From assembly GCF_055900595.2 (NCBI RefSeq), contig NZ_CM148325.1: a stretch of DNA of 64,000 nucleotides, one strand, 5' to 3'. This document shows positions 24,001 through 39,000 of the stretch, in pieces; position 1 is the first letter of the stretch, and each line of letters opens with the position of its first letter. The position numbers were made by a program.

Positions 24001-27000
24001 AGATCCTTATCAGGAACAACTGTAGCAGGCTCAAATTCTGAAGGTGCAAAATGGCATCTGAATCGATCACGACTTGGCATGCTTCCGATCATTGATTGGC
24101 ATCCTGCCAATCGTATCGTTCCGGCAAACTCATATTGACGCATTTTTCAGGCGAGCCACTGGGAGCGCATACGAATGGGCGCCGTCTGACGATGGTTGAT
24201 TTATTTTGTTGTACAGGGGCGATCGCCAGGCAGGTGCCGGAGGCTGGCTCTGAAGTGCTGAGTCGGGTAATCGCGTCAGGCTGCGCAGTACTGACATGGG
24301 TACTGGTGGCAGGTGATGAAGTTCGACTCCGGAAATGCCGCCGGGTTGATTGCGTATTCCGCTCTATTCGATCACGGATTGGCCCCCTGTGTACGAACAT
24401 CTGACGGCAGGTGTTGCTCATACAGGGTAAATCCCTCAAGAGGCAACAACTTTGTCAGTCGCTACTCCGGCCACTCAGGCAGACGCGTCAGGATGTTCGT
24501 CAGCCCGGCATGTGACTCTAGGCCATTACGTTTTGCTGTATCCAGAAGACTCATTATCTGTGCTGCATGTTTTCCGTCCCATGATAACCCGATGGATGGC
24601 GTGTTCGTAGATATTGTTGCAGTATGGAACCATATTCTAAGATACTTTGCTGTAAGAAATGCTACGTTTGATGAGCTCTATTTTATTATTCTGCCAGCTA
24701 AAAATTAGTATTGAATATAAAACTCACCACATTGAGAATAAATGAAACAAATATATTTAATCAGGAAGTTAAAAACAGATAACATGGGTGTAATACAATA
24801 AGGTACAGCCAGTAATTCCGGGCTTGCGGAGTTGCTGGATCGTATGACTTAGACGTGATAAAAAACAGGGAATACGATGAAATTCACTGAAGATACTCGG
24901 GTAAAAATCCCCGTAATCCTCCACCTGATACGGTTGGGATACTACTACCTGTCCCTTAAAGAACAACGCTGGGACAAAGAAACCAACATCTTCCCTGACC
25001 TCTTTACTGCTGCGATTGGCCGAATAAACCCCGGACTTGCGCCAGACGACATCGGACGCCTGTTAAAAGACCTCACGCTGCTTCTCGACAACGATGATCT
25101 GGGCCGCGCCTTCTTCGAAAAACTCAGTGATCGTTCCGGTATCAAACTGATCGACTTTGATAACTTCAACAACAACAGTTTCCATGTCGTCACCGAATTG
25201 ACCTGCGAAAACGATGATGAAGAATTCCGCCCGGACATCACGCTGCTGATCAACGGCATGCCGCTAATCTTTATCGAAGTGAAAAAACCCAATAATCGGG
25301 AAGGCATCGTCGCAGAACGCAATCGCATCAACGAACGCTTTAAAAACCCCAAATTCAAACGCTTCGCCAACATCACCCAGTTCATGATCTTCTCCAATAA
25401 CATGGAGTATGACGACAGCGACCCGGAGCCGATTCAAGGGGCATTCTACGCCAGCAGCTCTTACAGCAACCCGGTATTCAACTACTTCCGCGAAGAAGAA
25501 CTCTTCAACCTGACCAACTTACTGAAACCGCTGTCAGACGAAACCGAGATCGCCGTCCTGAAAGACAACAACCTGGAAGTCATCCGTACCAACCCGGAAT
25601 TCCAGACCAACAAAGATCACAACTGCCCGACTAACCGCCTTTGCACCGCGCTGTTGAGCCGGGATCGGCTGGCATTTATTCTGCGCTATGCGCTGGTGTA
25701 TGTCGCCGAACCGGGCGGAATCCAGAAACACATCATGCGCTACCCGCAGCTCTTCGCCACTAAAGCAATCGAGCGCAAACTGAACGCTGGTGTGAAGAAA
25801 GGCATCATCTGGCACACCCAGGGCAGCGGGAAAACCGCGCTGGCTTACTACAACGTGCGCTTCCTGACAGATTACTTCCAGAATCAGCAGGTGATCCCCA
25901 AATTCTACTTTATTGTTGACCGTCTGGATCTGCTCCAGCAGGCGCAGCGCGAGTTCACCGCCCGTGGCTTAATCGTTCACCTTATCGACTCCCGCGAAGC
26001 CTTCACTCGCGATATCAAAGCGACGCAGGCGCTGCACAACCACCACGGCAAAGCGGAAATCACCGTCGTCAACATCCAGAAATTCCGCGATGACCCGGAC
26101 GTCGTCACTACCAAAGACTACGATATCAACATCCAGCGCGTGTACTTCCTCGATGAAGTCCACCGCAGCTACAACCCCAAAGGAAGTTTCCTGGCGAACT
26201 TAAGCCAGTCGGACACCAACGCCATCAAAATTGGCCTGACCGGTACGCCTCTGCTGGGCACAGACTACAACTCCCGCGACCTCTTCGGCGACTACATCCA
26301 CAAATACTACTACAACGCCTCCATTGCCGACGGCTACACGCTGCGCCTGATCCGCGAAGAGATCGCCACCAACTACCGAATGATCCTGCAACAGGCGCTA
26401 AAAGAGGTGGAAGTCAGAATGGGCGATGTGGATCGCAAAGACATCTACGCCCATCCCAGCTTCGTCAAGCCGATGTTGAACTACATCATCACCGACTTTG
26501 CCAAAAGCCGGGGCGCGCTGAATGATGACACCATCGGTGGCATGGTGATTTGTGACAGCTCTGAACAGGCCAAACAGATGTTTGAGATATTCAACACTGA
26601 CTACGCCGAATCGCCCACCACCGTTTACCACATCCACACCAAAGAAACGCGGAAAATCAAACGCGCCGCCCTGATCCTACACGACGTCGGCAGCAAGCAG
26701 GAACGCAAAGAGTGGGTGGAGCAATTCAAAGCGGGAGAGATTGACCTGCTGTTCGTCTACAACATGTTGCTCACTGGCTTTGACGCCAAACGGCTAAAAA
26801 AACTCTACCTCGGGCGGGTGATCAGAAAGCACAACCTGCTCCAGGCGCTGACCCGCGTCAACCGAACCTACAACCACTTCCGCTACGGCTATGTGGTGGA
26901 CTTCGCCGACATCCGCCAGGAATTTGACGCCACCAACAAAGCCTACTTCGAAGAGCTACAGGCTGAACTGGGCGATGAAATGGAGCATTACTCCCGCCTG

Positions 27001-36000: not shown

Positions 36001-39000
36001 GGCTTTTGCTGGTCTGGAGGCCGCTATCATCTGTTTTATCAGTGGAATCCACTGGCTTGTGATCATAAGTACAAATGTTGGGGGCACTGGAGTTCGACGG
36101 ATTTATTGCACTGGCAGCATGAACCATTAGCGCTAATGCCCGATAAAGAGTACGACCGTAATGGTTGTTACTCAGGAAGCGCGGTTAATAATCAGGGCGT
36201 TCTCACACTTTGCTATACCGGTAATGTTAAGTTTGATGATGGCAGCAGAACGGCATGGCAATGTCTGGCCACCGAAAATAACCAGGGCGGGTTTGATAAA
36301 CTAGGCCCTGTCATATCGTTACCTGATGGTTACACCGGACATGTTCGTGATCCAAAAGTCTGGAAGCACAACAGCCAATGGTACATGGTGCTTGGCGCGC
36401 AAGATAAAGAGAAACGGGGGAAAGTGCTGCTGTATTCCTCTGTCGATCTGAATACCTGGTCTTTTCATGGAGAAATTGCTGGTAACGGTCTGAATGAAAT
36501 AGATAACGCAGGATACATGTGGGAATGTCCTGATCTTTTCGCCCTTGATGGTGAATACATTCTCCTCTGTTGCCCCCAGGGAATGGTGCGCGAACATGAG
36601 CGCTATCTGAATACTTATCCCTGCGCCTGGCTACATGGACAGTTTGATTACGAGACAGGCAAATTTATGCATGGCGCTTTCTCAGAGCTGGATGCGGGAT
36701 TTGAATTCTATGCACCACAGACGATGGAAGCCCCGGACGGGCGACGATTGCTGGTCGGCTGGATGGGGGGTCCTGATGGCGAAGAGATGTTGCAGCCAAC
36801 CAGAAAGCATCATTGGCAGCATCAAATGACCTGTTTTCGCGAACTCTCATTCCAGAAGGGAAAATTGTTTCAGATGCCAATCAGGGAACTCGCGCAACTG
36901 CGTGAAGCTGAACACTTCTGGCAAGGAAAAGCGGATCATGCGCCGCATGTCGAAATTGAACGCCTGGAAATGGACATCATTCCGTCGGGTGAGCTGTATC
37001 TGAATTTTGGCAATGCGCTGGCACTGCATCTTAATGACGATGGTATTCAACTACAGAGGAGAAGCCTTGCAGGGCAAGAGAAACTAACTCGTTACTGGCG
37101 AGGAAGCGTAACGTCACTGAAGATTCTCTGTGACAGTTCCAGCGTAGAGATATTCATCAATAATGGTGAAGGTGTAATGAGTAATCGTTATTTTCCCCAT
37201 CATCCAGCTTCGCTGATATTACAGGGTGAGTCTGACGTCACGTTACGCTACTGGTCGCTACGCGCCTGCATGGTAGAATGAGGGTTTTGAATTACGGATC
37301 CTCGTCGTGAGAAAAACCAAACGCGTTACTATTAAAGACATTGCTGAACTGGCGGGAGTGTCGAAAGCAACCGCCAGTCTGGTTCTCAATGGTCGTGGCA
37401 AAGAGTTACGTGTTGCGCAGGAAACGCGTGAGCGTGTGCTGAGTATTGCCCAACAGCAGCATTATCAGCCCAGCATTCATGCCCGCTCATTACGGGACAA
37501 CCGCAGTCATACCATTGGTCTCGTCGTTCCTGAAATCACTAACTACGGATTTGCAGTATTTTCCCATGAACTGGAAACATTGTGTCGGGAAGCGGGCGTC
37601 CAACTCCTCATATCCTGTACTGATGAAAATCCTTCACAGGAAACAATGGTGGTGAACAATATGATTGCCCGCCAGGTTGATGGGTTAATCGTCGCATCCA
37701 GTATGCTGCATGATAATGACTATCAAAAACTTAGCGAGCAATTACCTGTTGTGTTGTTCGATCGCCACATGAACGGCAGCACATTGCCATTGGTCATTAC
37801 TGACTCTGTTTCTCCCACCGCCGCTCTGGTGGCAGATATTGCACGGAGTCACCCGGATGAATTCTATTTTCTGGGGGGACAACCCCGTTTGTCACCGACT
37901 CGCGATCGACTGGAAGGATTTACACAAGGCTTGCAGCAAGCCGGAGTAACGCTACAACCTGAATGGATTATTCACGGTAATTATCATCCGAGCTCAGGCT
38001 ATGAAATGTTTGCCGCGCTATGCGCTCGTTTAGGACGTCCTCCTAAAGCCTTATTCACTGCCGCTTGTGGATTACTGGAAGGCGTTCTGCGCTATATGAG
38101 CCAATATAATTTACTCGACAGTACAATCCACCTGGCGAGTTTTGATGATCATTATTTGTATGATTCACTTTCGGTAAGAATCGACACAATACAACAGGAT
38201 AATCGCCAACTTGCTTTTCACTGCTTTGAGCTTATTTCGCAACTGATTGAAGGTGAAACGCCATCCCCATTACAGCGTTATCTTCCTGCCAGTTTACAAA
38301 AACGCTATAGATAATTTATTAATTATCTTATGTAGCTGAGTATTAGGTGACAAATGATCAGTCTTTCCCACGACAATTGTATCGTTCTGATGAACTCATA
38401 TTGACGCATTTTTCGGGCGTATCAGTCCCCGGTGTTACGAATGGTGCATACGAACGATCGCAGTTTGACGATGGTTGATTTATTTTGTTGCGCAGGGGCA
38501 ATCGCCTGCTAGGTACCGAAGGCTGGCTCTGAAGTACTGAGTCGGGTGATCGCGTCTGGCCGCTGGCTGCGAATTACTGACACGGGATTGGTGGCAGGTG
38601 ATGAAATCCTGTCCCGGAAATGGCTCCGGATTGATTCAAGTTCTGACCCGCTGTCAGCCCGCGTGGTTGCTGCTCTGGCTCATTTCCTGTCGTCAGTTTT
38701 CTCATGCCCGGCTGCGGGTTTTCGGACTGAATGATAATATCTGACGACAGGAGTCGCTCATCTATCGAAGGTAAATCTCCCTGAAAGTAATAGTTCTGGC
38801 AGGGGGAACAGAACTGTAATCATTGTACCGTAATTTGAGTTGGCTACCTTTGCTACATGAAAACTTTATTCACTTTGTTCATGTTGATTGGGGTTTTCAA
38901 TGAGGAAAGTTTCCAGGGTACAATCTCCATTAACCTGTTTCCGCAAAGCAAGTGGCATTTTACCGTTACCAGACCCACGTCCTGGTTTCGCCGTTCTCAT

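What the first reader, a model, noticed from the sequence alone, without database searches (positions are those of the whole stretch)
24100..38620. ~230-bp imperfect direct repeats bracketing the hsdRMS-scrKYABR module
Two ~85%-identical copies of the same sequence lie at 24100-24330 and 38370-38620, in the same orientation, exactly flanking the type I R-M plus sucrose regulon block. Short ORFs opening in each copy start with similar peptides (MKFDSGNAAGLI versus MKSCPGNGSGLI), so the repeat may be a conserved 5-prime leader of paralogous genes. The repeats could be recombination scars of a module insertion, substrates for excision or duplication of the block, or a structured regulatory RNA. 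I do not recognise the sequence as a known IS end, tRNA fragment, ERIC/REP or att site.
Basis: seen in the sequence. Interest (0 to 1): 0.6.

Follow-up and report, generated by a model that had tools for sequence, protein, structure and literature searches.

The report
Decayed IS66-family ends flanking hsd-scr block
The two repeats are broken right-hand ends of IS66-family insertion sequences in an E. coli pheV island, and other E. coli strains show that recombination between them has deleted the restriction-modification plus sucrose block at least three times; this is ordinary mobile-element debris.

Summary
The repeat is real: two direct copies, about 81-86% identical with indels, 14.27 kb apart, bracketing hsdRMS and scrKYABR. 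It extends further than reported: copy 1 is 24108 to about 24630, copy 2 is 38374 to about 38802.

It is not an RNA, a gene leader or an att site. Both copies are truncated right ends of an ISEc49-related IS66-family insertion sequence. Each has the terminal inverted repeat plus the roughly 360-bp non-coding stretch that lies between that repeat and the tnpC stop codon in a full 2,773-bp reference copy on plasmid pEC012-4. Copy 1 also keeps about 70 degenerate tnpC codons and a 33-nt IS21-family scrap.

There is no left end, no tnpA or tnpB, and both remnants point the same way. The block is therefore not a composite transposon.

Related E. coli islands carry one hybrid copy (copy 1 on the left, copy 2 on the right) between the same flanks and lack the block. 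These hybrids have three different crossover points, so homologous recombination between the remnants has deleted the 14.3-kb block repeatedly.

The leader, RNA and "not an IS end" ideas do not. This is a known kind of thing and of low interest.

The parts
24113..24139 (-). Copy 1: right terminal inverted repeat (IRR) of the IS66-family remnant, GTATCGTTCCGGCAAACTCATATTGAC. The element's genes read on the minus strand, so its outer end is at 24113.
   Evidence: 23 of 27 positions match the IRR of the full element at L006:4662-4688. That IRR pairs with an IRL at L006:7407-7437 (31 nt, 84% complementary). Unrelated flanks meet the element at this same edge in six independent copies (alignment A3).
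24140..24350 (-). Copy 1: IS66 3' non-coding region, which lies between the tnpC stop codon and the IRR in a full copy.
   Evidence: 82.9% identical to positions 7-239 of the full element; alignments A3 and A5.
24351..24395 (+). IS21-family terminal scrap that replaces about 100 bp of the IS66 3' region in copy 1. This accounts for the large indel between the two copies.
   Evidence: A 33-nt exact match (24351-24383) to the element end next to a truncated, unannotated minus-strand reading frame that looks IstB-like by eye in pEC012-4, L006:4001-4033 (the IS21-family assignment was not confirmed by a family search). The same 33-mer is at 100% identity on many plasmids. OkiPb01677 and ECL27977 carry copy 1 without this replacement.
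24396..24630 (-). Copy 1: the last part of the IS66 3' region plus a degenerate 3' fragment of tnpC. About 70 codons remain, with an in-frame stop, a frameshift and a 35-nt deletion. The element is truncated at about 24620-24630.
   Evidence: tblastn of pEC012-4 TnpC gives 39/51 identical residues, E = 2e-23, at 24423-24575, and a second 20-residue piece at 24571-24630 in another frame. PGAP annotates the orthologous stretch as an 'IS66 family transposase' pseudogene.
38379..38405 (-). Copy 2: IRR of a second, more diverged IS66-family remnant, GTATCGTTCTGATGAACTCATATTGAC.
   Evidence: 21 of 27 positions match the L006 IRR. Homology to all reference copies begins here, 65 bp after the scrR stop.
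38406..38802 (-). Copy 2: the complete IS66 3' non-coding region plus roughly the last 10 very diverged tnpC codons. It is truncated at about 38802 against the 3' flank of the hns-like gene.
   Evidence: 76.1% identical to positions 14-380 of the full element; alignment A3. tblastn finds no further TnpC match.
24241..24256 (.). Crossover interval of the TUM1881 / VTB97432v deletion allele. It is a 16-nt stretch identical in both copies and corresponds to 38520-38535.
   Evidence: The TUM1881 single copy differs from copy 1 at 1 of 264 positions to the left of this interval and from copy 2 at 0 of 364 positions to the right of it. VTB97432v is 100% identical to TUM1881 over 711 nt.
24631..38378 (+). 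The bracketed block: hsdR (24877-27921), hsdM (27915-29549), hsdS (29542-30774), an ISCro1-like IS66 remnant (30926-31112), then scrK, scrY, scrA, scrB and scrR (31836-38314).
   Evidence: ORFs and the PGAP annotation of near-identical loci. The block is absent from the single-copy alleles.
30926..31112 (-). A third IS66-family right-end remnant, of the ISCro1-like subgroup, in the same orientation. It separates the hsd module from the scr module.
   Evidence: 88.6% identical over 185 nt to the right end of the ISCro1-family element in L013. OkiPb01677 has a longer version of it directly after hsdS and has no scr.

Best explanation
The window is a pheV-associated genomic island of E. coli. The two repeats are independent, decayed right-end fragments of ISEc49-related IS66-family insertion sequences.

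Both fragments lack the left end, tnpA, tnpB and nearly all of tnpC, so neither can transpose. Because they lie in direct orientation 14.27 kb apart and share identical runs of 16-28 nt, they behave as ordinary homologous-recombination substrates. A single crossover between them removes hsdRMS and scrKYABR and leaves one hybrid copy.

Shown:
- The identity of the repeats as an IS66-family end.
- The existence of hybrid single-copy alleles with three distinct crossover points.

Inferred:
- That the events were RecA-type deletions rather than insertions.
- That the two remnants come from two separate IS insertions.
For: 1. A full element at L006:4662-7434 (2,773 bp) has 31-nt terminal inverted repeats that start GTAA. 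Its three ORFs pass the NCBIfam cut-offs for IS66 TnpA (45 bits, cut-off 28), TnpB (114, cut-off 50) and the IS66 transposase (437, cut-off 180).

2. Both window copies align with the right end of that element, and with five other copies, starting exactly at the IRR. The flanks outside the IRR are unrelated in every case.

3. Copy 1 continues into a tnpC C-terminal remnant (E = 2e-23).

4. BLAST of the whole element against the window finds only these right-end pieces.

5. Single-copy alleles between the same flanks occur in TUM1881, VTB97432v, SW070919, SC418 and MEW. EM03-18-08 carries one in a selC island; 23CRST011 gives an equivalent hit but was not aligned.

6. The crossovers lie at 24214-24220 (EM03-18-08), 24241-24256 (TUM1881) and to the right of 24276 (SW070919, SC418).

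7. TUM1881 matches the block-bearing strain 504239 in its pattern of flank differences from the window over 21500-23500, and is near-identical to the window from 23500 up to the repeat.

8. In OkiPb01677, copy 1 is a complete, internally coherent right end running into tnpC. Both halves of copy 1 are closer to the 2011C_3361 element (87.8% and 83.4%) than the two halves of copy 2 are (76.9% and 74.7%). This argues for two separate IS lineages.
Against: Insertion and deletion by one reciprocal crossover give the same products, so one of the single-copy alleles could be ancestral.

The SW070919 / SC418 allele has a 40-nt deletion and a middle segment unlike either window copy. It is therefore not a simple recombinant of the window's own copies.

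Target-site duplications cannot be checked on truncated elements.

The inverted-repeat pair was demonstrated in only one full reference copy. The two other full-length relatives I fetched are cut at one end.

The window IRRs begin GTAT rather than the GTAA expected for the family.
Confidence: 0.88

Rival explanations
1. The block arrived by homologous insertion. A circular or plasmid-borne segment carrying an IS66 right-end fragment plus hsd and scr crossed over with a single resident remnant, creating the two copies. Under this reading the single-copy alleles are the ancestral empty site.
For: Single-copy alleles occur in diverged island lineages and in a selC island. The scr unit together with copy 2 (31703-38776) is 98.8% identical on at least 22 IncF plasmids, so it does move between replicons.
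Against: An ancestral empty site predicts one apparent switch point, but three are seen. The plasmid copy ends 26 nt short of the island copy, so the island version cannot derive from it. Divergence between the plasmid copy and copy 2 is even across the crossover (4 differences in 162 nt, then 7 in 241 nt). Each window copy is internally homogeneous in its divergence from reference elements.
Confidence: 0.2
2. The repeats are the ends of an IS66-based composite or one-ended transposition unit that moved hsd-scr as a transposon.
For: pEC012-4 shows the same layout: a solo right end with a tnpC fragment, then cargo (an autotransporter gene), then a full element, all in direct orientation. Three right-end remnants in the same orientation mark the module joints in the window. 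IS66-family elements are active in these islands: ISEc23 is inserted into copy 2 in strain 504239, and its flanks overlap at 38715-38724.
Against: Both window copies are right ends in direct orientation. There is no left inverted repeat and no tnpA, tnpB or intact tnpC anywhere in the window. The copies differ by about 15-20%, so they are not products of one recent event. No matching 8-bp duplications flank the pEC012-4 unit.
Confidence: 0.05
3. The repeat is a functional cis-regulatory element, a structured RNA, or the leader of a small conserved gene, kept at both sites by selection.
For: A 47-codon ORF (38601-38744 in copy 2), antisense to tnpC, stays open with the same stop in 5 of 6 diverged lineages. 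It shows more synonymous change (83 synonymous to 210 non-synonymous) than the other two frames (25:275 and 38:251). A hairpin, CCTGTCGTCAG...CTGACGACAGG, after the tnpC stop is conserved, with one compensatory change.
Against: There is no Rfam family, no excess folding energy and negligible covariation. The ORF is destroyed in copy 1, has a stop at codon 4 in ISEc49 and has lost its ATG in SW070919 and SC418. It has no NCBIfam match. Any such function would belong to the insertion sequence, not to the hsd or scr genes.
Confidence: 0.05
4. The repeats are attL and attR sites of a site-specifically integrated module.
For: They are direct repeats at the two edges of a block that is present in some strains and absent in others.
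Against: The repeats are 420-520 bp long and about 81-86% identical with indels, not a short identical core. No recombinase gene lies within the block. The crossover points differ between alleles. The same sequence is physically continuous with IS66 tnpC at many unrelated loci.
Confidence: 0.01

Closest known systems
IS66 family insertion sequences, ISEc49-related subgroup. The family was described by Han et al. 2001 (J Bacteriol 183:4296) and Gourbeyre et al. 2010 (Res Microbiol 161:136). Both references are listed in the paper read; the family features below are from my own knowledge.
   Same: The terminal inverted repeat is of the GTAA/GTAT type. The order tnpA-tnpB-tnpC is present in the full reference copy. 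The remnant next to copy 1 matches the C-terminus of the IS66 transposase. Named ISEc49 in ATCC 25922 is 74.7% identical to the reference copy over positions 56-2672.
   Different: The window holds only truncated right ends. The 360-bp non-coding tail after tnpC appears longer than in the IS66 members I recall; I did not test this. PGAP gives the closest full copies no specific IS name.
Deletion of the DNA between directly repeated IS copies by homologous recombination, the classic route of island and plasmid remodelling.
   Same: The repeats are direct. The product keeps one hybrid copy, the crossovers fall in stretches identical in both copies, and several independent events are seen.
   Different: The substrates are diverged (about 81-86% identical), immobile fragments from two different IS lineages, not two identical active copies.
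ISEcp1- or IS1247-type one-ended transposition units, and IS26 translocatable units.
   Same: An IS end sits next to cargo, and the motif 'end fragment then cargo' recurs.
   Different: There is no evidence of transposase-made junctions here: no target duplications, no left end, and variable crossover points.

Membership tests
IS66 family insertion sequence (as a remnant) | Terminal inverted repeats of about 20-30 bp that begin 5'-GTAA | tested here: met
   In the full reference copy at L006:4662-7434 the arms are 31 nt, 84% complementary, and start GTAAT. The window copies match that IRR at 23/27 and 21/27 positions, but both begin GTAT, as does the 2011C_3361 copy.
IS66 family insertion sequence (as a remnant) | The gene set tnpA, tnpB and tnpC (the DDE transposase) | tested here: met
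   The reference copy passes the cut-offs of NF047593, NF033819 and NF033517. In the window only a degenerate tnpC C-terminus survives, next to copy 1. Copy 2 has none. The window therefore holds remnants, not elements.
IS66 family insertion sequence (as a remnant) | 8-bp target-site duplication | not testable with these tools
   Both window copies lack their left ends. For comparison, ISEc23 inserted into copy 2 in strain 504239 has flanks that overlap at 38715-38724, which is consistent with such a duplication.
IS66 family insertion sequence (as a remnant) | The same end sequence joined to unrelated flanks at independent loci | tested here: met
   Six junctions begin at the same nucleotide with unrelated DNA outside. 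There are matches in 1,179 of 5,426 E. coli genomes and on 683 plasmids.
Composite (compound) transposon | Two IS copies, or at least two inverted ends, bracketing the cargo, with a transposase available | tested here: not met
   Both copies are right ends in direct orientation. The window contains no IRL, tnpA, tnpB or intact tnpC of this element.
Integrative element att sites | A short identical core repeat, a fixed crossover and an associated recombinase | tested here: not met
   The repeats are about 81-86% identical with indels. There are three crossover points. No recombinase gene lies in 24631-38378.
Described structured RNA family (Rfam) | A covariance-model match, or conserved base-pairing with covariation | tested here: not met
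   Nothing reaches gathering score in the window except tRNA-Phe. The best sub-threshold hit is 16 bits against a cut-off of 50. The covariation terms are -0.38 and +3.62 kcal/mol.

The most novel reading that the evidence does not exclude
The solo right-end fragments may not be passive debris. An IS66 transposase supplied in trans from one of the many complete relatives could pair a solo right end with a left end elsewhere and move the adjacent cargo, as in one-ended transposition units. That would explain why 'right-end remnant then cargo' recurs at three joints in this window, in pEC012-4 and in the IncF scr unit. Separately, the 360-bp tail may encode a real 47-residue peptide antisense to tnpC.
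Probability: 0.07. Interest if true: 0.4.

Novelty: already known. Interest (0 to 1): 0.15.

Why it matters
The result explains a piece of unannotated, widely repeated E. coli DNA. PGAP annotates nothing, or only short hypothetical ORFs, over the 360-bp tail.

It also shows how a type I restriction-modification system and the sucrose PTS regulon are lost together from pheV and selC islands. The scr genes travel with one of these remnants onto IncF plasmids.

This is useful for annotating and comparing islands, but it adds no new principle.

Tried and rejected
- **F-plasmid Frpo-like single-strand promoter.** I considered this because some weak hits lay in plasmid leading regions. I rejected it because single-stranded DNA folds of both strands are no better than shuffles, and the plasmid hits turned out to be IS66 ends next to finO or sucrose genes.

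- **Rfam.** Scans at gathering score and at E up to 10 found nothing.

- **Pattern search for the reference IRR.** Allowing up to 3 mismatches found nothing in the window, because the window IRRs have 4 and 6 mismatches. BLAST and alignment were needed instead.

- **Inverted-repeat searches in two other full-length relatives (L007, L008).** They did not recover the terminal pair. Both copies are cut at one end: L008's match stops short of the left end and it sits nested in another copy of the element, and L007 is truncated at its right end where it abuts another IS66-family element.

- **Target-site duplications around the pEC012-4 element and unit.** None were found.

- **Using the mismatch profile to place a transfer boundary at the repeat.** This failed. 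The divergence step is at about 23100-23300, not at copy 1.

- **Literature searches for this island or element.** They returned nothing specific. Han et al. 2001 is not held in the library.
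Full report
**Observation**

The repeat is real. The repeat finder reports three collinear direct-repeat blocks with start-to-start spacing of 14266-14285 nt:
- 24108-24153 / 38374-38419, 87% identical
- 24167-24284 / 38446-38563, 86% identical
- 24299-24351 / 38584-38636, 79% identical

A 24-mer from the core occurs only at these two places in the window, with none expected by chance. The pairwise alignment shows small indels and one 55-nt gap. 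Similarity resumes after the gap, at 24396-24440 against 38745-38802. The repeat is therefore longer than reported: about 520 bp for copy 1 and about 430 bp for copy 2.

**Context**

The window is an E. coli genomic island at tRNA-Phe (49814-49889, minus strand). That tRNA gene lies next to yqgA and speC, so it is pheV.

Annotated near-identical loci give this order:
- type VI secretion genes, nucleases, a PAPS-reductase/IbrB pair, perC, two hypothetical genes
- copy 1
- hsdR, hsdM, hsdS
- scrK, scrY, scrA, scrB, scrR
- copy 2
- a convergent hns-like gene, an outer-membrane protein gene, further genes, the integrase, and pheV

**What the repeat is**

Database hits were the key. The sequence occurs in 1,179 of 5,426 complete E. 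coli genomes and on 683 plasmids. In several places it runs straight into the 3' end of an IS66-family transposase gene on the opposite strand.

Plasmid pEC012-4 carries a complete element at L006:4662-7434, 2,773 bp long.
- Its ends are 31-nt inverted repeats, 84% complementary, beginning GTAAT.
- Its three ORFs pass the NCBIfam cut-offs for IS66 TnpA, TnpB and transposase.
- In this element 360 bp separate the right inverted repeat from the tnpC stop codon.

A seven-sequence alignment shows that both window copies align with exactly this right end. Homology starts at the inverted repeat in every copy, and the DNA outside it is unrelated each time. That is the signature of a mobile-element terminus.

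The nearest element that PGAP names is ISEc49, at 74.7% identity.

**Anatomy of copy 1**
- Inverted repeat at 24113-24139.
- Non-coding tail to 24350.
- A 33-nt exact match to the end of an IS21-family element at 24351-24383. With its neighbouring bases it replaces about 100 bp of the tail.
- The rest of the tail, followed by about 70 degenerate tnpC codons ending near 24630 (tblastn E = 2e-23, with an in-frame stop and a frameshift).
- Strains OkiPb01677 and ECL27977 carry copy 1 without the IS21 scrap, as a coherent right end running into tnpC.

**Anatomy of copy 2**
- Inverted repeat at 38379-38405.
- The whole tail.
- It ends at about 38802, roughly ten codons into tnpC.

BLAST of the full element against the window finds nothing else. 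There is no left end and no tnpA, tnpB or usable tnpC. Both copies are remnants pointing the same way, so they cannot act as a composite transposon.

**What the repeat is not**
- Rfam finds only the tRNA at gathering score and nothing credible below it.
- Single-strand folds of either strand are no better than shuffled sequence (z = -0.99 and +0.08).
- RNAalifold on six diverged copies gives covariation terms of -0.38 and +3.62 kcal/mol.
- The only recurrent structure is a short hairpin just after the tnpC stop.
PGAP sometimes calls it hypothetical. It is intact in copy 2 and broken in copy 1. It has a stop at codon 4 in ISEc49 and has no ATG in two other lineages. Its synonymous excess is modest. 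Any function it has would belong to the insertion sequence, not to hsd or scr.

**Do the repeats matter for the block?**

I joined 2 kb of left flank to 2 kb of right flank and searched the complete genomes. I then searched with the hybrid copy itself.

Five genomes have the two flanks separated by a single copy of the repeat, with no hsd or scr: TUM1881, VTB97432v, SW070919, SC418 and MEW. EM03-18-08 has a single copy in a related island at tRNA-Sec (selC); 23CRST011 gives an equivalent hit but was not examined further.

The TUM1881 copy is a clean hybrid.
- It has 1 difference in 264 positions from copy 1 on the left, and 0 in 364 from copy 2 on the right.
- The switch lies in a 16-nt stretch identical in both copies, 24241-24256 (= 38520-38535).
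- Its pattern of flank differences from the window over 21500-23500 matches that of the block-bearing strain 504239, and from 23500 up to the repeat it is near-identical to the window.

The EM03-18-08 copy switches at 24214-24220. The SW070919 / SC418 copies switch to the right of 24276.

One ancestral empty site would give one apparent switch point. Three switch points mean at least two, and probably three, independent crossovers between a copy-1-type and a copy-2-type remnant. I read these as recurrent homologous deletions of the 14.3-kb block. The origin of the two-copy state itself remains open.

Two observations favour two separate IS insertions over a single split one. First, each copy is uniform along its length in its divergence from reference elements. 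Second, copy 1 is complete and coherent in OkiPb01677.

**Wider pattern**

A third IS66-family right-end remnant, of the ISCro1-like subgroup, lies at 30926-31112 between hsdS and scrK in the same orientation. OkiPb01677 has hsdRMS followed by a longer version of that remnant and then hns, with no scr.

Strain 2013C-4991 has scr but only part of hsdS. The scr genes together with copy 2 (31703-38776) are 98.8% identical on at least 22 IncF plasmids.

IS66-family debris therefore marks every module joint in this island family.

**Comparison with what is known, and verdict**

This is insertion-sequence debris acting as a recombination substrate, which is a textbook process. The family assignment rests on features tested here: the inverted repeats, the gene set in a full copy, and repeated independent junctions. 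The 8-bp target duplication cannot be tested on truncated copies.

The finding is confirmed as an observation and partly right as an interpretation (excision substrate). It is of low novelty. The small ORF and the recurrent 'right end then cargo' layout are the only loose ends worth a note.

Noticed in passing
window 30926-31112: A third IS66-family right-end remnant (ISCro1-like, 88.6% over 185 nt) lies between hsdS and scrK, in the same orientation as the two repeats. In OkiPb01677 a longer version follows hsdS directly and scr is absent.
   Followed up: partly
window 31703-38776; L014: The scrKYABR unit together with copy 2 is 98.8% identical on at least 22 conjugative IncF plasmids, inserted in the leading region. 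The plasmid copy of the remnant ends 26 nt earlier than the island copy.
   Followed up: partly
window 24046-24107 and 24351-24383: There are fragments of IS21-family element ends. One is a terminal stretch with subterminal CGATCAnnGATTGGCAT repeats immediately left of copy 1; it is longer in EM03-18-08. The other is a 33-nt exact end scrap inside copy 1. ECL27977 has an inverted piece of the same end at that spot.
   Followed up: partly
window 38601-38744 (+); L006:4865-5008: A 47-codon ORF antisense to tnpC in the IS tail is open with the same stop in 5 of 6 diverged lineages. Synonymous to non-synonymous counts are 83:210, against 25:275 and 38:251 in the other frames. It has no family match and a conserved hydrophobic core.
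   Followed up: partly
window 38680-38765; L006:4950-5015: A conserved hairpin, CCTGTCGTCAG...CTGACGACAGG, lies just downstream of the tnpC stop in this IS subgroup. ISEc49 has one compensatory change. Copy 1 has lost the left arm.
   Followed up: no
window 38866-39340 (-): The hns-like gene is frameshifted near codon 122 in the window (124 residues, then a stop), against 157 residues in strain 2013C-4991. Other strains have IS66-family insertions in the same gene.
   Followed up: yes
window 21689-23250: The ibrB-perC-hypothetical segment differs by 7-9% from every related island examined. From about 23500 onward the window is identical to them. This is a separate mosaic boundary, unrelated to the repeat.
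   Followed up: partly
L006:367-7434 (plasmid pEC012-4): The layout matches the window's: a solo right end with a tnpC fragment, then cargo (an autotransporter gene) and an IS21-family fragment, then a full IS66-family element, all in direct orientation and with no matching target duplications.
   Followed up: partly
L008:1342-1515 and 1497-4135 (strain 2011C_3361): A near-full copy of the same IS is inserted into the non-coding tail of another copy of itself, after ...GAAGAACTGAG.
   Followed up: no
L001:34560-37250 (strain 504239), at window 38715-38724: ISEc23, another IS66-family element with a GTAAGCG end, is inserted inside copy 2 in this strain. A further IS66-family element sits in the hns-like gene at window 39089-39097.
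   Followed up: partly
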